From: Pirellulales bacterium
GTDB taxonomy: Bacteria > Planctomycetota > Planctomycetia > Pirellulales > UBA1268
Length of the DNA: 46,322 nt
Assembly: GCA_044346905.1 (NCBI GenBank)
Contig: JBIIYH010000001.1
Coordinates: 1-46,322, forward strand
Reading direction: 5' to 3'
A program made the position numbers and the translations under genes. Shown one piece after another: positions 28,557 through 34,742 of the stretch. Position 1 is the stretch's first letter, and each line of letters opens with the position of its first letter. Under the pieces are notes generated by a model that worked only from the letters and a program-made list of their open reading frames with translations, was not told where the DNA came from and did not search any database.

Positions 28557-31500
28557 TCAGCGGGTGGCGACGCGACGGGTGTCGGAGCCCCGGACGCGTC
28601 CTTCGGCTTTGCGCCGGCGGTCGACGACGATGACGTCGAGGTACGCCGCCACCATGCCCAGCGCCGGAATCTCCACCATGATCCGCCGGGCGTCGTCACC
28701 CGTGCAAGCACGGATTCGCTCGACGATGTCGTAGCCCCAGTCCCAGGTGACGAGCGACCCGTCGGCCGACATCGGATTGCCGTGAAACTCGGGGGGCTCG
28801 AGGTGCCGCACGCCCTCCGCTCCCCGCTCCGCCCGCTGGCGGGAGGCCGCCGCGCCCCGCACCAGGGGCGTGGTCAGCAGATGCGCTCCGCCGGGCCGCA
28901 GCGTTCGCTGCACCTCACGGAAGGCAGCCTCGGGGTCGAAGACATGCTCGAAGACATCCTGGGTGATCACGACGTCGAACGAGCCGGAGTCGAAGGTCTG
29001 CCGCTCGAGATCCTCGGACCGCCAGCGGCCCTGCGGCTCGAGCATGCCGAACGGGGTCGCCGGGTCGTACTGGGAGGGCACGTAGCCGGGGCACTCACGG
29101 GCGAGCTTGCCGCTCAGACCCCGCATCTCCGGCGACGACTCGTGGATCCGCAGCCGGCGCCAGTCGGGAAACCGGATCTGGAGCGCGAGCATCAGGGCCC
29201 GCTCCCGGGGCAAGGAATGACACCGCTCGCAGATGTAGTGGTCCCGGAGCCAGGCCTCGGTGGAGGAGAACGTCGTGGCCTGTTCGCAGATCGGGCACCA
29301 GCCCGCGTGTCGCAGCACGTAGCCGGGAGGGGCGGCCGGCACCGCGGCCGGTGACGGCGGCAGGGGAGCGGGCTTGGCGGGCCGCACGCCGTCGAGCACC
29401 AGCTGCACGAGGTCGGCAAGATCGCCATGTTGCCTGGCGATGATCTCGGCGTGGCGGGCGAGGAGCCGTTCCCGCGGGGGTGGCCCGTGCCAGGCCTGGA
29501 GGATCGCCCCCGCGATCGAGTCGATATCCCGCGGGTCGCAGAACACCGCCGCCTCGCCGCAGATTTCCGGGATCGCCGCCACGGCGGCCACCACCGCGGG
29601 CGTGCCATACCGCATCGCCTCCACCGGCGGGTAGCCGAAGCCCTCGTTGAACGACGCGTAGACGAGCATCCGGGCCCGCTCGAGCAGGTATTCGAGCTGC
29701 CCCGGCGACACCTCGGGAATCGCCGTGAACCGCTCGGGGTGGGCGAGCTCGCCGAGGCCAAGCTCGGCGAGCGACGAGATCCCGACGAACACCACCCGCA
29801 GGTCCGCCAGCCCGAAGGGATCCCCTGCGGCGGCGAACAGGCGGTCGAAGGCGGCTGCCACCGACGGGGCGTTTTTCTCCGGCCGGCCCGCGTGCAGCAC
29901 CAAGGCGAACGGGCGGCCGTCCGAGGCGATTCCGTGACCGCGGTAGGGCGTCGGCTCCGGTCGGTCCTTCTCGGCCGAAGCGAGCACGACGAACCGCCCG
30001 GCCGGCGGAGCGAACTCCGCCTCGATCACCTCCCGGCAATACCGCGAGACGGTCACGAGCGTGTCGACGTGGGGGTCGTGGCAGAGCGTGGAATACATCG
30101 CCGCCAGCGAAGCGGGATCGGGTGCGGAACTCGAGAGGAACGAGCCCGGGCCGGCCGCCTGGGGCCGCCAGCCGGCCCGCACGAGCGCCGCGGTGATCCC
30201 CTCGCGGTCGCGGATCAACTGCAGGTCGCGAATGTCGTGCAGCGTGCCGACGATCCGTGTCCGGCCACCCGTGAACGGCAGCCTGGTGCCGGCCCGCTGC
30301 ATGTACTCGTAGCCCGTGTAGACGACGATCGCCGGACAGAAGAAGGCGTCGAAGCGGCCTGAGTTCACCAGCTCGACGATATCGGCGTAGGACCGGACCG
30401 CGATCACGCGGATTGCCAGCCGCCGGCACTCGGCGAGCACCCAGGGATCGATGTGGAGCGCTGGGTCGAGTGCCGCCCAGACGACGACGTCGCCACGGGC
30501 GGCCGCGGCCCGGGCCAGGCCCCGGAACACCGCCTTGCCGTACTCGCCGCCGCCGTGGTATCCGGGCTGGCAGAAGAACAGGTCGACGAGCACGTGCCGC
30601 TTCGGCCCGGCCACGAGGGTGGGCAGCGACTCGCTGCGGCAGTCGAGCGGCGTGCCGCGGCAGGCGGCCGCGAAGTTGTCGAGTTCGCCGGCGGCCAGCC
30701 CGGCGGCCCGCGCCGCGTTCTCGTAGCCGAGCCGCATCTTGGTGGCGCTCGGCAGCGCGCCGGTGGAGACGCCCTCCTCGTGGAGGATCTTGAGCTCGGG
30801 CGAGTAGGCCAGGAAGTGGCCGGCGAGCAGGGCGTCGACGGCGAACAGGAACTCCTCACCGTAGAGCTTGGTGCGCTCGTCGAACAGGGTCGGCATGCCC
30901 CGGACGAAGACCGGCGAGAGGATGATCGCCGCACCCTGGAGGAGCGGATTGGCAAGGAATGCCGCCTCGGGCGACCGCCGTCCGAGCCGGCGGAACCGCG
31001 GCTGGCCGGTCCGCTCGAAGTCGGCCCGGTCCTCGTGGTACATCGCCTCGAGCCGCCGCCACTCGTCCGGGCCGTAGACCGTGTCGTTCCAGGGGTTCTC
31101 CCGGCGGCCATCGGGCGTGACGATGTCGGGCCCGAGGACGGAACAGGCGGTCTCTTGAAACAGCCGCTCGCAGCGGAGGATGAAGTCGGCCTGCTCGATC
31201 CGGGTGTCGTTGTTGATCACGGCGATGAAGGCGGCGCCGAGCCGGTCGCGGGCGTGGGCGTAGCCCGCGTTATTGCCGCCGGCGAAGCCCAGGTTGGCCC
31301 CCGTCTCCAGGAGCTCGACCGCGGGCATCGTGGCGATCGCCTCCCGGGTCGCCTCGACCACGTCGGCGGGCGAGCCGTTGTCGACCACCACGATCCGTAC
31401 CGGCCGGCGGCTCTCGAGCCGCACGAGCGATTCCAGGCACCGGGCCGTCACGTCGAACCGGCCGAACTGGAGCACGACGAAGCAGAACGGGGCGTCGGGA

Positions 31501-34500: not shown

Positions 34501-34742
34501 GTGGCCACCGTGACGAAGCCCTCCGGCATCAGCCCGTTGGTCCGGAGCACGAGCTGGTGCCACTCCACGAACTGGAGGTCCTCGAAGTGCCCCGCCTCGT
34601 TGCCCCGGTATGAGCCCAGCAGCTGGTCGCCCACTTGCAGGCCCGCTGCCTGGCAGAGCGACGCCAGGAGCGAGGTGCCCGAGCGGTGCATGCCCGCGAT
34701 CACGAGGGCCGGCGGGCGGTCCGTATTGGCTGGTCGGTTCAT
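28557..34742 (-). CDS. 2,061-aa multidomain glycan assembly protein: sulfotransferase, coiled coil, WbsX, GT2, GT4, Zn-ribbon/SAM methyltransferase
   Basis: Uninterrupted ORF. Start taken at ATG 34742 ([26 protein letters not shown]), because the track start at 35183 overlaps rfbC.
- ~34085-34742: sulfotransferase ([18 protein letters not shown]).
- ~33210-33870: coiled coil of ~219 aa ending in [11 protein letters not shown].
- ~31815-32850: WbsX ([33 protein letters not shown]).
- ~30770-31490: GT2 ([15 protein letters not shown], NNDT).
- ~29470-30600: GT4 ([21 protein letters not shown]).
- ~28600-29330: CxxC..CxxC ribbon plus methyltransferase ([16 protein letters not shown].PGG). Confidence 0.85.
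   Translation of the reverse strand: [2061 protein letters not shown]

What the first reader, a model, noticed from the sequence alone, without database searches (positions are those of the whole stretch)
28557..34742. Single 2,061-aa ORF combining a sulfotransferase, a ~220-aa coiled coil, three glycosyltransferase-type modules and a methyltransferase
**Seen in the sequence**
- One uninterrupted minus-strand frame encodes six modules in order.
- (1) Sulfotransferase: PAPS-binding-like GMHRSGTS and RRPWEVVDS.
- (2) About 219 residues of heptad-like Ala/Glu/Arg/Leu sequence, ending in [11 protein letters not shown].
- (3) WbsX-type domain.
- (4) GT2.
- (5) GT4 ([11 protein letters not shown]).
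- (6) CxxC..CxxC ribbon plus a class I methyltransferase.

**Established background**
- In ABC-transporter-dependent O-antigen pathways, chain length is set by a terminating enzyme held at a distance from the polymerase by a coiled-coil ruler.
- Examples are WbdD with WbdA in E. coli O9a, and the single protein WbbB in Klebsiella O12, ordered terminator, coiled coil, polymerase GTs.

**Inference**
- This ORF has the WbbB-like order, but with a sulfotransferase where the terminator sits, plus an extra C-terminal methyltransferase.
- That suggests a self-contained polymerase, ruler and terminator that caps a (rhamnose-containing?) glycan with sulfate.
- I do not know of a characterised system that uses sulfation as the chain-terminating signal.
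Basis: partly seen in the sequence, partly recalled or inferred. Interest (0 to 1): 0.82.

Follow-up and report, generated by a model that had tools for sequence, protein, structure and literature searches.

The report
Sulfotransferase-headed coiled-coil glycan polymerase
A real 2,061-residue planctomycete protein joins a sulfate-adding enzyme, a ~36-nm helical spacer and sugar-polymerising modules, laid out like known bacterial enzymes that build, measure and cap surface sugar chains, so it probably caps chains with sulfate, which has not been shown in bacteria.

Summary
Independent assemblies carry the same full-length ORF, so it is not an assembly fusion.

It sits in an ABC-transporter (wzm/wzt) glycan cluster with rmlBDAC, in a Pirellulales genome.

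The WbbB/WbdD-type reading (terminator head, coiled-coil ruler, polymerase) is the best-supported one:
- The N-terminal domain has a PAPS-sulfotransferase fold with intact, invariant binding motifs.
- It is followed by one 246-residue proline-free helix, then a strongly basic amphipathic segment, then the catalytic modules.
- The same sulfotransferase plus coiled-coil head sits on different polymerase sets in many phyla.
- In Pseudomonas, Vibrio, a Rhizobiales isolate and Lyngbya it lies next to a Wzt carrying the cap-reading Wzt_C module.

Three corrections:
- This window's Wzt is 246 aa with no cap-reading module, so one hallmark of capped systems fails here.
- The "WbsX glycosyltransferase" is a GH99-like TIM barrel that keeps both catalytic glutamates. 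It is not a known Leloir glycosyltransferase fold.
- The locus has a second, stand-alone sulfotransferase plus coiled-coil protein and a second WbsX protein.

No chemistry was shown. A 2019 bioinformatic census that I could not read may already predict sulfotransferase terminators.

Verdict: new variant of a known kind, interest about 0.6.

The parts
28557..34742 (-). Whole 2,061-aa multi-module gene: sulfotransferase, coiled coil, basic helices, GH99-like WbsX, GT2, GT4, zinc ribbon plus methyltransferase.
   Evidence: ORF and translation. Pfam hits. Full-length orthologs in independent assemblies.
33978..34742 (-). aa 1-255. PAPS-type sulfotransferase head with GMHRSGTS at 17-24, E54, KDPR at 109-112, and R134..P136..S142.
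   Evidence: Sulfotransfer_3 at 4.6e-9. The motifs are invariant in 42 sequences from several phyla. pLDDT is mostly above 90. The top Foldseek hits are all sulfotransferases: TPST2 3ap3 at 2.8e-6, 4gox, 1nst, and Stf0/1/9.
33210..33947 (-). aa 266-511. One continuous Ala/Glu/Leu/Arg-rich helix of 246 residues with no proline, about 36 nm if straight. This is the putative coiled-coil ruler.
   Evidence: DSSP helix 266-511 in the AF2 model, with a pLDDT dip at 372-377. Heptad scan and composition. Weak SMC, crescentin and Rad50 hits.
32973..33209 (-). aa 512-590. Conserved SxSW(K/R)LTxPLR motif and four short, strongly basic amphipathic helices. Putative membrane-proximal anchor or docking region.
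   Evidence: Helices 514-587. 22 K/R against 3 D/E, hydrophobic moment 0.47-0.54. S513 and W516 are nearly invariant in the family.
31818..32852 (-). aa 631-975. WbsX domain, a GH99-like (beta/alpha)8 barrel. [14 protein letters not shown] (aa 947-960) keeps both GH99 catalytic glutamates, E951 and E954.
   Evidence: PF14307 at 1.2e-129. AF2 pLDDT 88.5, pTM 0.90. Foldseek hits GH99 endo-alpha-mannosidases at 2.6e-12, then MANEA and GH71. The profile aligns the motif to BxGH99 NEWHEG, which holds E333/E336.
30753..31487 (-). aa 1086-1330. GT2 (GT-A) glycosyltransferase module.
   Evidence: Glycos_transf_2 at 7.6e-11. Weak sub-threshold hit to the TIGR01556 rhamnosyltransferase model.
29373..30590 (-). 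aa 1385-1790. GT4 (GT-B) glycosyltransferase module with an EX7E motif at aa 1700-1708.
   Evidence: Glycos_transf_1 at 5.3e-16 and Glyco_trans_1_4 at 1.2e-12. PDB sequence hits to GT4 enzymes 7qsg and 2r60.
28638..29309 (-). aa 1812-2035. CxxC..CxxC zinc-ribbon-like element plus a class I SAM methyltransferase. This module is absent from some close orthologs.
   Evidence: Methyltransf_11, _23, _12, _25 and _31 hits. CPIC at aa 1816 and CERC at aa 1838. P0006-P0008, P0010 and P0011 (1,753-1,798 aa) lack it.
17862..18803 (+). wzm, the ABC-2 permease.
   Evidence: ABC2_membrane at 8.5e-10.
18808..19548 (+). wzt, the ABC ATPase. It is only 246 aa and has no C-terminal carbohydrate-binding module.
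   Evidence: ABC_tran is the only domain. Tail lengths compared across loci. No Wzt_C-like sequence in any of the six frames of the window.
19537..21039 (-). ST2, a stand-alone paralog of 500 aa in a WbdD-like format. Sulfotransferase domain (48% identical to the head of the giant protein) plus a coiled coil of about 235 aa. It has no basic anchor region and no GT modules.
   Evidence: Sulfotransfer_3 at 1.2e-6. BLASTP 9e-61. Heptad scan. SMC-type hits over 287-485.
21296..23095 (+). WbsX2, a stand-alone WbsX/GH99-like protein. It is 59% identical to the WbsX module and carries N-terminal ~40-aa repeats.
   Evidence: PF14307 at 1.2e-133. BLASTP 1e-156. Start codon checked.
34885..41684 (-). 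Upstream genes on the same strand, from 41684 down to 34885: rmlB-like, two SDR epimerase/reductases, a GT2 resembling polyprenyl-phosphate hexose synthases, rmlD, rmlA, rmlC.
   Evidence: Pfam. NCBIfam for the GT2.
23814..28527 (-). Downstream, tightly packed same-strand genes: a 473-aa polytopic membrane protein, a DUF4214 plus Methyltransf_24 protein, and a 756-aa polytopic membrane protein.
   Evidence: Pfam. Translations. Synteny is conserved in relatives L001-L003, L005 and L012.

Best explanation
The gene encodes a cytoplasmic, membrane-associated assembly enzyme for a glycan that is probably rhamnose-containing. The glycan is made on a lipid carrier and exported by the Wzm/Wzt ABC transporter of the same cluster.

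**Proposed layout**
- The C-terminal two thirds (GH99-like WbsX, GT2, GT4) extend the chain next to the membrane.
- The basic amphipathic helices at aa 512-590 hold the protein at the membrane.
- The 246-residue helix (aa 266-511) oligomerises into a rod of about 36 nm.
- The PAPS-dependent sulfotransferase head sits at the far end of that rod.

**Proposed mechanism**
- Only chains long enough to reach the head are sulfated at their non-reducing end. That stops extension and sets the chain length.
- This is the mechanism shown for WbdD, WbbB and K. pneumoniae O7 ORF6, with sulfate replacing methyl, methyl-phosphate or Kdo.
- The C-terminal methyltransferase more likely decorates sugars near the polymerase than terminates the chain.

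**Shown here:** gene integrity, domain identities and folds, motif conservation, the long helix, and the genomic context here and in relatives.

**Inferred:** oligomeric coiled coil, membrane binding, rhamnose content, sulfate as a terminal cap, and the ruler function.
For: [quoted passage not shown]
- **Head.** Sulfotransfer_3 scores above the Pfam cutoff. The PAPS-binding motifs are invariant in 42 sequences and across Planctomycetota, Pseudomonadota and Cyanobacteriota. All top structural matches are sulfotransferases.
- **Context.** wzm/wzt, rmlBDAC, further GT2 genes and an O-antigen-ligase-like gene are in the window.
- **Modularity.** The same head precedes WbsX-GT4-GT2, WbsX-RgpF, WbsX-GT2-GT4(-MT) and GT2-GT2-GT4-MT. 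That is what is expected of a portable terminator-ruler unit.
- **Cap-reader in relatives.** In Pseudomonas sp. PH1b, a Pseudomonas MAG, Vibrio sp. 10N.261.45.E2, a Rhizobiales isolate and Lyngbya sp. PCC 8106, the gene lies downstream of wzm and a wzt with Wzt_C. It is directly adjacent in four of them, and after two methyltransferase genes in Lyngbya. The four proteobacterial Wzt_C hits score 1e-25 to 1e-28.
- **Tunable spacer.** The distance from the head motif to the SxSW(K/R) motif ranges from 396 to 694 aa in 44 family members. Several carry recent tandem duplications inside the helix.
- **Head kept when methyltransferase is lost.** Close orthologs without the methyltransferase keep the sulfotransferase and helix.
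Against: - Wzt here and in four relatives assigned to Pirellulales or Planctomycetota has no CBM, and no Wzt_C-like sequence is in the window. The 2024 JBC paper states that all terminated examples have that CBM. Of 15 related loci with both a head and a Wzt, six carry the ~215-240-aa C-terminal extension where the CBM sits; Wzt_C was confirmed by Pfam in four of them. P0160 is a further CBM-less case.
- No sulfate-capped bacterial glycan was found in the accessible literature.
- The acceptor of the sulfotransferase is unknown, and in-chain sulfation is not excluded.
- The helix was modelled as a monomer, so oligomeric state and straightness are unknown. There is a low-confidence dip at aa 372-377.
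- A second sulfotransferase plus coiled-coil protein in the cluster complicates a simple one-ruler model.
- The role of the GH99-like module as a polymerase part is unproven.
Confidence: 0.55

Rival explanations
1. The sulfotransferase decorates sugars within the chain, on every repeat or on many, rather than capping it. The long helix only oligomerises or scaffolds the complex, and chain length is set by coupling of polymerisation to export, as in K. pneumoniae O2a.
For: - Wzt lacks a CBM in this window and in its planctomycete relatives.
- CBM-less transporters are the mark of uncapped systems such as O1/O2 (PMC11231755).
- From my own knowledge, unchecked here: bacterial O-antigens with in-chain sulfate are known.
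- The small sulfotransferase-domain ORF in the A. salmonicida cluster has no matching sulfate in the reported structure. That shows such genes are hard to read (PMC4483657).
Against: - An in-chain modifier has no evident need to be held about 246 helical residues away from the polymerase.
- That placement is conserved across phyla.
- Relatives do pair the head with Wzt_C transporters.
Confidence: 0.2
2. The C-terminal methyltransferase is the chain terminator, giving a methyl cap as in E. coli O8 or K. pneumoniae O5. The sulfotransferase head has another role, or the cap needs both activities.
For: - Methyl and methyl-phosphate caps are the established chemistries.
- The methyltransferase module is well conserved: tblastn identity is 40-57% across phyla, often next to WbsX.
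- The Lyngbya and P0160 loci are rich in methyltransferase genes, including one fused sulfotransferase-methyltransferase protein.
Against: - The methyltransferase sits at the polymerase end, not across the coiled coil.
- Five close orthologs lack it yet keep the head and the helix.
Confidence: 0.12
3. The long ORF is an assembly or frameshift artefact that joins separate genes, or a chance open frame in 72% G+C DNA.
For: High-GC DNA produces long spurious ORFs. One example is the antisense 1,143-aa ORF at 30453..33884 (+).
Against: - Six Pfam domains lie in one frame.
- GC3 is 0.88.
- Near-identical and 75%-identical full-length orthologs occur in separate assemblies.
- Similar fusions occur in isolate genomes of Pseudomonas, Vibrio and Lyngbya.
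Confidence: 0.01

Closest known systems
WbbB of Klebsiella pneumoniae O12 / Raoultella terrigena
   Same: - One polypeptide ordered N-terminal terminator, coiled coil, C-terminal polymerase GT modules.
- ABC-transporter pathway and a rhamnose-containing product (PMC11231755).
   Different: - WbbB's terminator is a beta-Kdo glycosyltransferase. Here the head is a PAPS-type sulfotransferase.
- The polymerase modules differ. Here they are a GH99-like WbsX, GT2 and GT4, plus a methyltransferase.
- The O12 Wzt carries a CBM. This Wzt does not.
ORF6 of K. pneumoniae O7
   Same: - A small-group transferase head, then a coiled coil, then GT modules in one protein, with rml genes and wzm/wzt in the locus.
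- Further polymerase parts are supplied by separate proteins.
   Different: - Its head is a methyltransferase-kinase that makes a methyl-phosphate cap, and it includes an Ig-like CBM.
- Its GT modules are two GT2 domains.
WbdD of E. coli O9a/O8 (K. pneumoniae O3/O5)
   Same: - The coiled coil separates the terminating catalytic sites from a membrane-associated amphipathic region that recruits the polymerase.
- The stand-alone ST2 protein at 19537..21039 has this terminator-only format.
   Different: - WbdD's chemistry is kinase plus methyltransferase, and its polymerase WbdA is a separate protein.
- ST2 lacks a recognisable membrane-binding tail.
GH99 endo-alpha-mannosidases/mannanases (Bacteroides BxGH99, human MANEA), for the WbsX module
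   Same: - (beta/alpha)8 fold, TM about 0.56-0.63, E down to 2.6e-12.
- The FCFYY(Y/D)W and NEW(A/H)EG motifs align, including both catalytic glutamates.
   Different: - GH99 enzymes are secreted or Golgi hydrolases acting on mannosides.
- WbsX is a cytoplasmic module of a biosynthetic protein. Its substrate and reaction are unknown.
- The sequence-level match is weak (E = 0.004).
HNK-1 sulfotransferase capping of LARGE1-made matriglycan (mammals)
   Same: Sulfation of a polymer is cited among capping mechanisms that control glycan length (PMC12514197, citing Sheikh et al. 2020).
   Different: - It is a eukaryotic Golgi system with a separate enzyme, no coiled-coil ruler and no transporter checkpoint.
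- I could not read the primary paper.

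Membership tests
Capped-glycan ABC-transporter pathway with coiled-coil terminator (WbdD / WbbB / O7 ORF6 type) | Wzm/Wzt ABC transporter encoded in the same cluster | tested here: met
   ABC2_membrane protein at 17862..18803 and ABC_tran protein at 18808..19548.
Capped-glycan ABC-transporter pathway with coiled-coil terminator (WbdD / WbbB / O7 ORF6 type) | A non-polymerase modifying enzyme at the distal end of an extended coiled coil | tested here: met
   Sulfotransferase at aa 1-255, then a single helix at aa 266-511. The layout is conserved in the family. 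Oligomeric coiled-coil formation itself was not tested.
Capped-glycan ABC-transporter pathway with coiled-coil terminator (WbdD / WbbB / O7 ORF6 type) | Membrane-proximal amphipathic region and polymerase modules at the other end of the coiled coil | tested here: met
   Basic amphipathic helices at aa 514-587 with 22 K/R against 3 D/E, followed by WbsX, GT2 and GT4. Membrane binding itself is inferred.
Capped-glycan ABC-transporter pathway with coiled-coil terminator (WbdD / WbbB / O7 ORF6 type) | Wzt carries a C-terminal carbohydrate-binding module that reads the cap | tested here: not met
   Wzt is 246 aa with only ABC_tran. An HMM built from Wzt_C tails finds nothing in the six frames of the window. 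Planctomycete relatives have Wzt of 242-248 aa. The feature is met in relatives from Pseudomonas, Vibrio, Rhizobiales and Lyngbya.
Capped-glycan ABC-transporter pathway with coiled-coil terminator (WbdD / WbbB / O7 ORF6 type) | A chemically demonstrated non-reducing terminal residue, and chain length that depends on coiled-coil length | not testable with these tools
   Only indirect evidence: spacer length varies from 396 to 694 aa and evolves by tandem duplication.
PAPS-dependent sulfotransferases (Pfam Sulfotransfer_3) | Profile match above the curated threshold | tested here: met
   37.3 bits against a cutoff of 27, E = 4.6e-9, aa 11-208.
PAPS-dependent sulfotransferases (Pfam Sulfotransfer_3) | 5'-phosphosulfate loop (xRSGTS) and 3'-phosphate motif (R..S) intact | tested here: met
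   G17-M-H-R-S-G22, S24, R134, P136 and S142 are invariant in 42 sequences and across phyla. Assigning these motifs to PAPS binding rests on my general knowledge of sulfotransferases.
PAPS-dependent sulfotransferases (Pfam Sulfotransfer_3) | Sulfotransferase fold | tested here: met
   All top 28 Foldseek hits are sulfotransferases, including TPST1/2, the OLS sulfotransferase domain, NDST1, Stf0/1/9 and 3-OST.
PAPS-dependent sulfotransferases (Pfam Sulfotransfer_3) | Sulfate transfer to a defined acceptor | not testable with these tools
   No assay is possible. The acceptor is unknown.
WbbB proper (GT99 beta-Kdo transferase terminator) | N-terminal GT99 Kdo transferase domain | tested here: not met
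   The N-terminal domain is a sulfotransferase by profile and by fold. The protein works like WbbB in layout but is not a WbbB homolog in its head.
Leloir glycosyltransferase (GT-A or GT-B fold), as implied by the name 'Glycosyltransferase WbsX' | GT-A or GT-B fold of the WbsX module | tested here: not met
   The AF2 model (pTM 0.90) is a (beta/alpha)8 barrel whose best matches are GH99 and GH71 hydrolases.
Glycoside hydrolase family 99 | TIM-barrel fold plus the catalytic Glu pair in the NEWxEG motif | tested here: met
   Foldseek 2.6e-12. E951 and E954 align with BxGH99 E333 and E336, and both are invariant in WbsX domains.
Glycoside hydrolase family 99 | Significant sequence membership and endo-alpha-mannosidase activity | tested here: inconclusive
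   The profile-to-PDB match is only E = 0.004. Activity cannot be tested here.

The most novel reading that the evidence does not exclude
The conserved core is the triad sulfotransferase, coiled coil and GH99-like WbsX barrel, not the Leloir GT modules.

**WbsX reading.** The barrel keeps the GH99 glutamate pair. In GH99 those residues act through the axial 2-OH of manno-configured sugars, and rhamnose (6-deoxymannose) also has that 2-OH. WbsX may therefore be a cytoplasmic non-Leloir transglycosylase, or an endo-cutter, working on a rhamnan or mannan at the foot of the ruler. That would be a measure-cap-and-cut (or measure-cap-and-transfer) way of fixing glycan length that no characterised system uses.

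**Planctomycete variant.** This version additionally runs without a cap-reading Wzt. It has a second, free sulfotransferase plus coiled-coil protein whose length tracks the fused ruler across genomes: 500 vs 513, 518 vs 528, and about 560 vs 544 aa (n = 3). That is compatible with a mixed coiled-coil bundle.
Probability: 0.12. Interest if true: 0.85.

Novelty: new variant of a known kind. Interest (0 to 1): 0.6.

Why it matters
- **New cap chemistry.** Chain-length control by a coiled-coil ruler plus a terminal cap is one of the best understood principles of bacterial surface-glycan assembly. It rests on a handful of enterobacterial prototypes with methyl, methyl-phosphate or Kdo caps. A sulfate cap would add a new, strongly anionic chemistry.
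- **Scale.** The family is large and phylum-spanning. There are 14,316 cluster representatives at E <= 1e-3 and 3,994 at E <= 1e-10.
- **Testability.** Members occur in culturable Pseudomonas, Vibrio and cyanobacteria, where the idea can be tested directly.
- **WbsX annotation.** WbsX is widely annotated as a glycosyltransferase, but it is a GH99-like barrel with catalytic residues intact. That questions the routine annotation of many O-antigen clusters.
- **Export without a cap-reader.** The versions without a Wzt CBM raise the question of how termination and export are coupled when no cap-reader is present.

Tried and rejected
- **Prior work.** Ten full-text literature searches found no bacterial sulfotransferase terminator and no functional study of WbsX/PF14307.
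- **Papers not held.**
  - Mann, Kimber & Whitfield 2019 (Glycobiology 29:822), the key census.
  - The 2020 JBC review.
  - Williams et al. 2017, PNAS.
  - Sheikh et al. 2020.
- **Hidden cap-reader.**
  - An HMM of Wzt_C tails found nothing in the six frames of the window.
  - The unknown neighbours of 237, 473 and 756 aa gave no Pfam hit at E 0.5 and no NCBIfam hit at E 0.01.
  - The 473-aa and 756-aa proteins are polytopic membrane proteins, not CBMs.
- **Whole-protein PDB sequence search.** It gave only weak GT4 hits and one CurM sulfotransferase hit, nothing for WbsX. The GH99 link needed a structure model and a domain profile.
- **Failed trim.** Cutting WbsX domains out of alignment A3 failed, because the fragment's ends were spread across the alignment. 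I redid it with DNA coordinates.
- **Assembly fusion or chance ORF.** Rejected; see the rival explanations.
- **ST2 as a dead paralog.** The window's ST2 has T23M and H52P. Its orthologs keep the canonical residues, and H52 is not conserved in proteobacterial members. Left open.

Full report
**1. The observation**

The window has about 70% G+C, so long chance ORFs are common. One example is the antisense 1,143-aa ORF at 30453..33884.

The minus-strand frame ending at 28557 is nevertheless a real gene.
- It is open from 35183, but the stretch above 34742 overlaps rmlC (34885..35415).
- The ATG at 34742 gives 2,061 aa, and orthologs start at the same methionine.
- GC3 is 0.88.

| Module | Residues | E-value |
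|---|---|---|
| Sulfotransfer_3 | 11-208 | 4.6e-9 |
| WbsX | 633-971 | 1.2e-129 |
| GT2 | 1092-1256 | 7.6e-11 |
| GT4 | 1608-1760 | 5.3e-16 |
| Class I methyltransferase | 1904-1993 | 1.1e-10 (best model, Methyltransf_11) |

All quoted motifs are present.

The same uninterrupted architecture occurs in several independent assemblies, so an assembly fusion is excluded for practical purposes.
- P0001 is 99% identical and 2,061 aa.
- P0002-P0005 are 75-76% identical and 2,027-2,075 aa, from separate assemblies.
- A Pirellulales MAG (L001) matches at 75% over residues 1-2061.

**2. Where it sits**

The best genomic relatives are Pirellulales/Planctomycetota MAGs.

Genes on the minus strand, in order, packed within about 30 bp of each other:
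- rmlB-like
- two SDR enzymes
- a GT2 resembling polyprenyl-phosphate hexose synthases
- rmlD, rmlA, rmlC
- the giant gene
- a 473-aa polytopic membrane protein
- a DUF4214 plus Methyltransf_24 protein
- a 756-aa polytopic membrane protein

Further along the window:
- wzm (17862..18803)
- wzt (18808..19548)
- a second sulfotransferase protein on the opposite strand (19537..21039)
- a second WbsX protein (21296..23095)
- two more GT2 genes, an SDR gene and a Wzy_C/O-antigen-ligase-like TPR protein

This is an ABC-transporter-dependent glycan cluster with dTDP-rhamnose supply.

**3. Anatomy of the N-terminal third**

An AlphaFold2 model of aa 1-625, built on a 42-sequence alignment, has mean pLDDT 79.9.
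- Residues 1-250 form a confident globular domain.
- Residues 266-511 form one unbroken helix with no proline, rich in Ala, Glu, Leu and Arg.
- There is a confidence dip at residues 372-377.
- Four short helices follow at 514-587.

Foldseek matches the head only to sulfotransferases: TPST2 at 2.8e-6, the olefin-synthase sulfotransferase domain, NDST1, mycobacterial Stf0/1/9 and 3-OSTs.

The residues G17-M-H-R-S-G22, S24, E54, K109, P111, R112, R134, P136 and S142 are invariant in 42 family members. They are also kept in Pseudomonas, Vibrio, Rhizobiales and Lyngbya proteins that are only 23-38% identical overall.

The segment after the helix starts with the nearly invariant SxSW(K/R)LTxPLR motif. 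It has 22 Lys/Arg against 3 Asp/Glu, with helical hydrophobic moments of 0.47-0.54. That is what a peripheral membrane anchor or docking site would look like. This is inference.

A straight helix of 246 residues would span about 36 nm (1.5 Å per residue, my calculation).

**4. The WbsX module is not a classical glycosyltransferase**

Its model (pLDDT 88.5, pTM 0.90) is a (beta/alpha)8 barrel. The best PDB matches are GH99 endo-alpha-mannosidases/mannanases and human MANEA (E from 2.6e-12, TM about 0.56-0.63), followed by GH71.

A six-sequence WbsX profile aligns to BxGH99 at E = 0.004.
- FCFYYYWF pairs with FCFYYDWY.
- [14 protein letters not shown] pairs with SFNEWHEGSQIEP.
- The deposited E333Q variant reads NQWHEG at that site. 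So E951 and E954 of the giant protein correspond to the GH99 catalytic pair E333 and E336.
- Both glutamates are invariant in the WbsX alignments.

Whether this module hydrolyses, transglycosylates or transfers from a nucleotide sugar is unknown. I found no functional paper on it.

The count of "three glycosyltransferase modules" should therefore read: two Leloir-type modules plus one GH99-like module.

**5. The family and its neighbours**

The top 120 homologs almost all start with the GxHRSGTS motif within the first 60 residues, whatever follows. A phmmer search of the head against 1.84 billion cluster representatives gives these counts:

| E-value limit | Representatives |
|---|---|
| 1e-3 | 14,316 |
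| 1e-10 | 3,994 |
| 1e-30 | 601 |

Many are 300-650 aa, with a coiled-coil-like stretch right after the domain. A minority are longer than 900 aa.

The head is combined with different catalytic sets:
- WbsX-GT2-GT4 with or without the methyltransferase (Pirellulales)
- WbsX-GT4-GT2 (Pseudomonas sp. PH1b, Vibrio sp. 10N.261.45.E2, a Rhizobiales isolate)
- WbsX-RgpF (a Pseudomonas MAG, and P0160)
- GT2-GT2-GT4-methyltransferase (Lyngbya, Microcoleus)

The distance from the head motif to the SxSW(K/R) motif ranges from 396 to 694 aa. Several members show near-identical tandem duplications inside the helix. So the spacer length evolves quickly.

In the four proteobacterial loci the gene directly follows wzm and a Wzt with the Wzt_C module, at E 1e-25 to 1e-28. 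Lyngbya PCC 8106 has wzm, a Wzt with Wzt_C, two methyltransferase genes and then the 2,105-aa protein.

According to PMC11231755, two features mark capped glycans: a coiled-coil protein with a distal terminator, and a CBM-bearing Wzt. On that basis the family as a whole looks like a terminator-ruler family with a sulfotransferase head.

**6. What does not fit in this window**

*No cap-reader.*
- Wzt is 246 aa with only the ATPase domain.
- Planctomycete relatives have Wzt of 242-248 aa.
- A Wzt_C HMM finds nothing in the six-frame translation.
- Of 15 related loci holding both a head and a Wzt, six have the C-terminal extension that marks a CBM-bearing Wzt. P0160 is another case without it.
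- So either export is not gated by the cap in these lineages, or another reader exists.

*A second head and a second barrel.*
- The cluster encodes ST2 (500 aa). Its head is 48% identical to the giant's, and it has a helix of about 235 aa but no basic tail.
- It also encodes WbsX2, whose barrel is 59% identical and which has N-terminal repeats.
- The ST2 paralog recurs in other Pirellulales MAGs.
- ST2 length tracks the giant's head-to-motif distance in three genomes: 500/513, 518/528 and about 560/544. With only three points, this is a hint that the two helices are matched or pair with each other.

**7. Mechanism and rivals**

*Best reading (confidence about 0.55).* This is a WbbB/O7-ORF6-format enzyme. 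The polymerase modules work at the membrane. The helix oligomerises into a spacer. The distal sulfotransferase caps chains that have grown long enough.

*Rival 1 (about 0.2).* The sulfotransferase decorates the chain internally and the helix is only a scaffold. The missing CBM favours this. The conserved distal placement and the Wzt_C pairing in relatives count against it.

*Rival 2 (about 0.12).* The methyltransferase is the terminator. Against it, the methyltransferase lies at the polymerase end and is dispensable in close orthologs.

*Artefact.* About 0.01.

**8. Comparison and novelty**

In layout, the protein works like WbbB and O7 ORF6, and ST2 looks like WbdD.

It is not a homolog of their terminator domains, and one defining feature of the capped pathway (the Wzt CBM) is not met here.

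I found no characterised bacterial sulfate cap. Sulfation is cited as a capping mechanism for mammalian matriglycan.

I recall, but could not verify, that the 2019 census by Mann, Kimber and Whitfield lists new predicted terminator chemistries. If sulfotransferases are among them, the idea is already predicted in silico, though still untested.

I therefore rate this as a new variant of a known kind, with moderate to high interest (0.6). The architecture is common rather than unique, and the general principle is established. It stays above average for three reasons: the cap chemistry would be new, the GH99-like module is unexplained, and cultured carriers make the idea testable.

Noticed in passing
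window 19537..21039 (-): ST2 is a stand-alone sulfotransferase plus coiled-coil paralog. It reads GMHRSGMS and GPFED where its orthologs in L003, L009 and L023 keep GMHRSGTS and GH(F/Y)ED. Its total length tracks the fused ruler in three genomes: 500/513, 518/528 and about 560/544 aa.
   Followed up: partly
window 21296..~21980 (+): The N-terminal part of WbsX2 is made of about four tandem ~40-aa repeats of the form (W/S)Y..(N)PDV...GL.PL.HY...G..EGR.P.P.FD. The same repeat type appears between the coiled coil and WbsX in P0012.
   Followed up: no
window 18808..19548 (+) and 19537..21039 (-): wzt and ST2 converge, and their 3' ends overlap by 12 nt. Wzt is only the ATPase domain (246 aa).
   Followed up: partly
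window 23814..26084 (-), 27106..28527 (-), 37229..38302 (-): Two polytopic membrane proteins (756 and 473 aa) have no Pfam or NCBIfam match. A GT2 resembles polyprenyl-phosphate hexose synthases (AglJ/ArnC-like). Together they suggest a periplasmic, lipid-linked-sugar decoration step of the GT-C type. They are syntenic with the giant gene in relatives.
   Followed up: partly
window 23123..23836 (+): A conserved 237-aa soluble protein with no family match lies directly downstream of WbsX2. Relatives L001-L003, L006 and L012 carry it at 60-82% identity.
   Followed up: no
window 12938..14896 (-): A Wzy_C (O-antigen ligase family) membrane protein fused to C-terminal TPR repeats lies at the edge of the glycan cluster. 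It is a candidate for ligating the exported glycan to its final acceptor.
   Followed up: no
window 30453..33884 (+): A 1,143-aa ORF runs antisense to the giant gene. Such ORFs are typical of high-GC DNA and it is almost certainly not coding.
   Followed up: no
P0008, P0009, P0018, P0049, P0054, P0062 (coiled-coil regions): Relatives carry near-perfect tandem duplications of 27-72 aa inside the coiled coil. The window's own helix shows no recent duplication.
   Followed up: partly
L079 16383..17966 (Lyngbya sp. PCC 8106): A 527-aa protein fusing sulfotransferase and methyltransferase domains lies directly after the 2,105-aa sulfotransferase-headed polymerase. Two further methyltransferase proteins lie between wzt and the polymerase.
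   Followed up: no
window 28638..29309 (-), aa ~1860-1870: The C-terminal methyltransferase has IHESSP where class I enzymes usually carry the glycine-rich SAM loop. The Pfam models match only the part after that loop. The sequence is conserved in P0009 and P0012.
   Followed up: no
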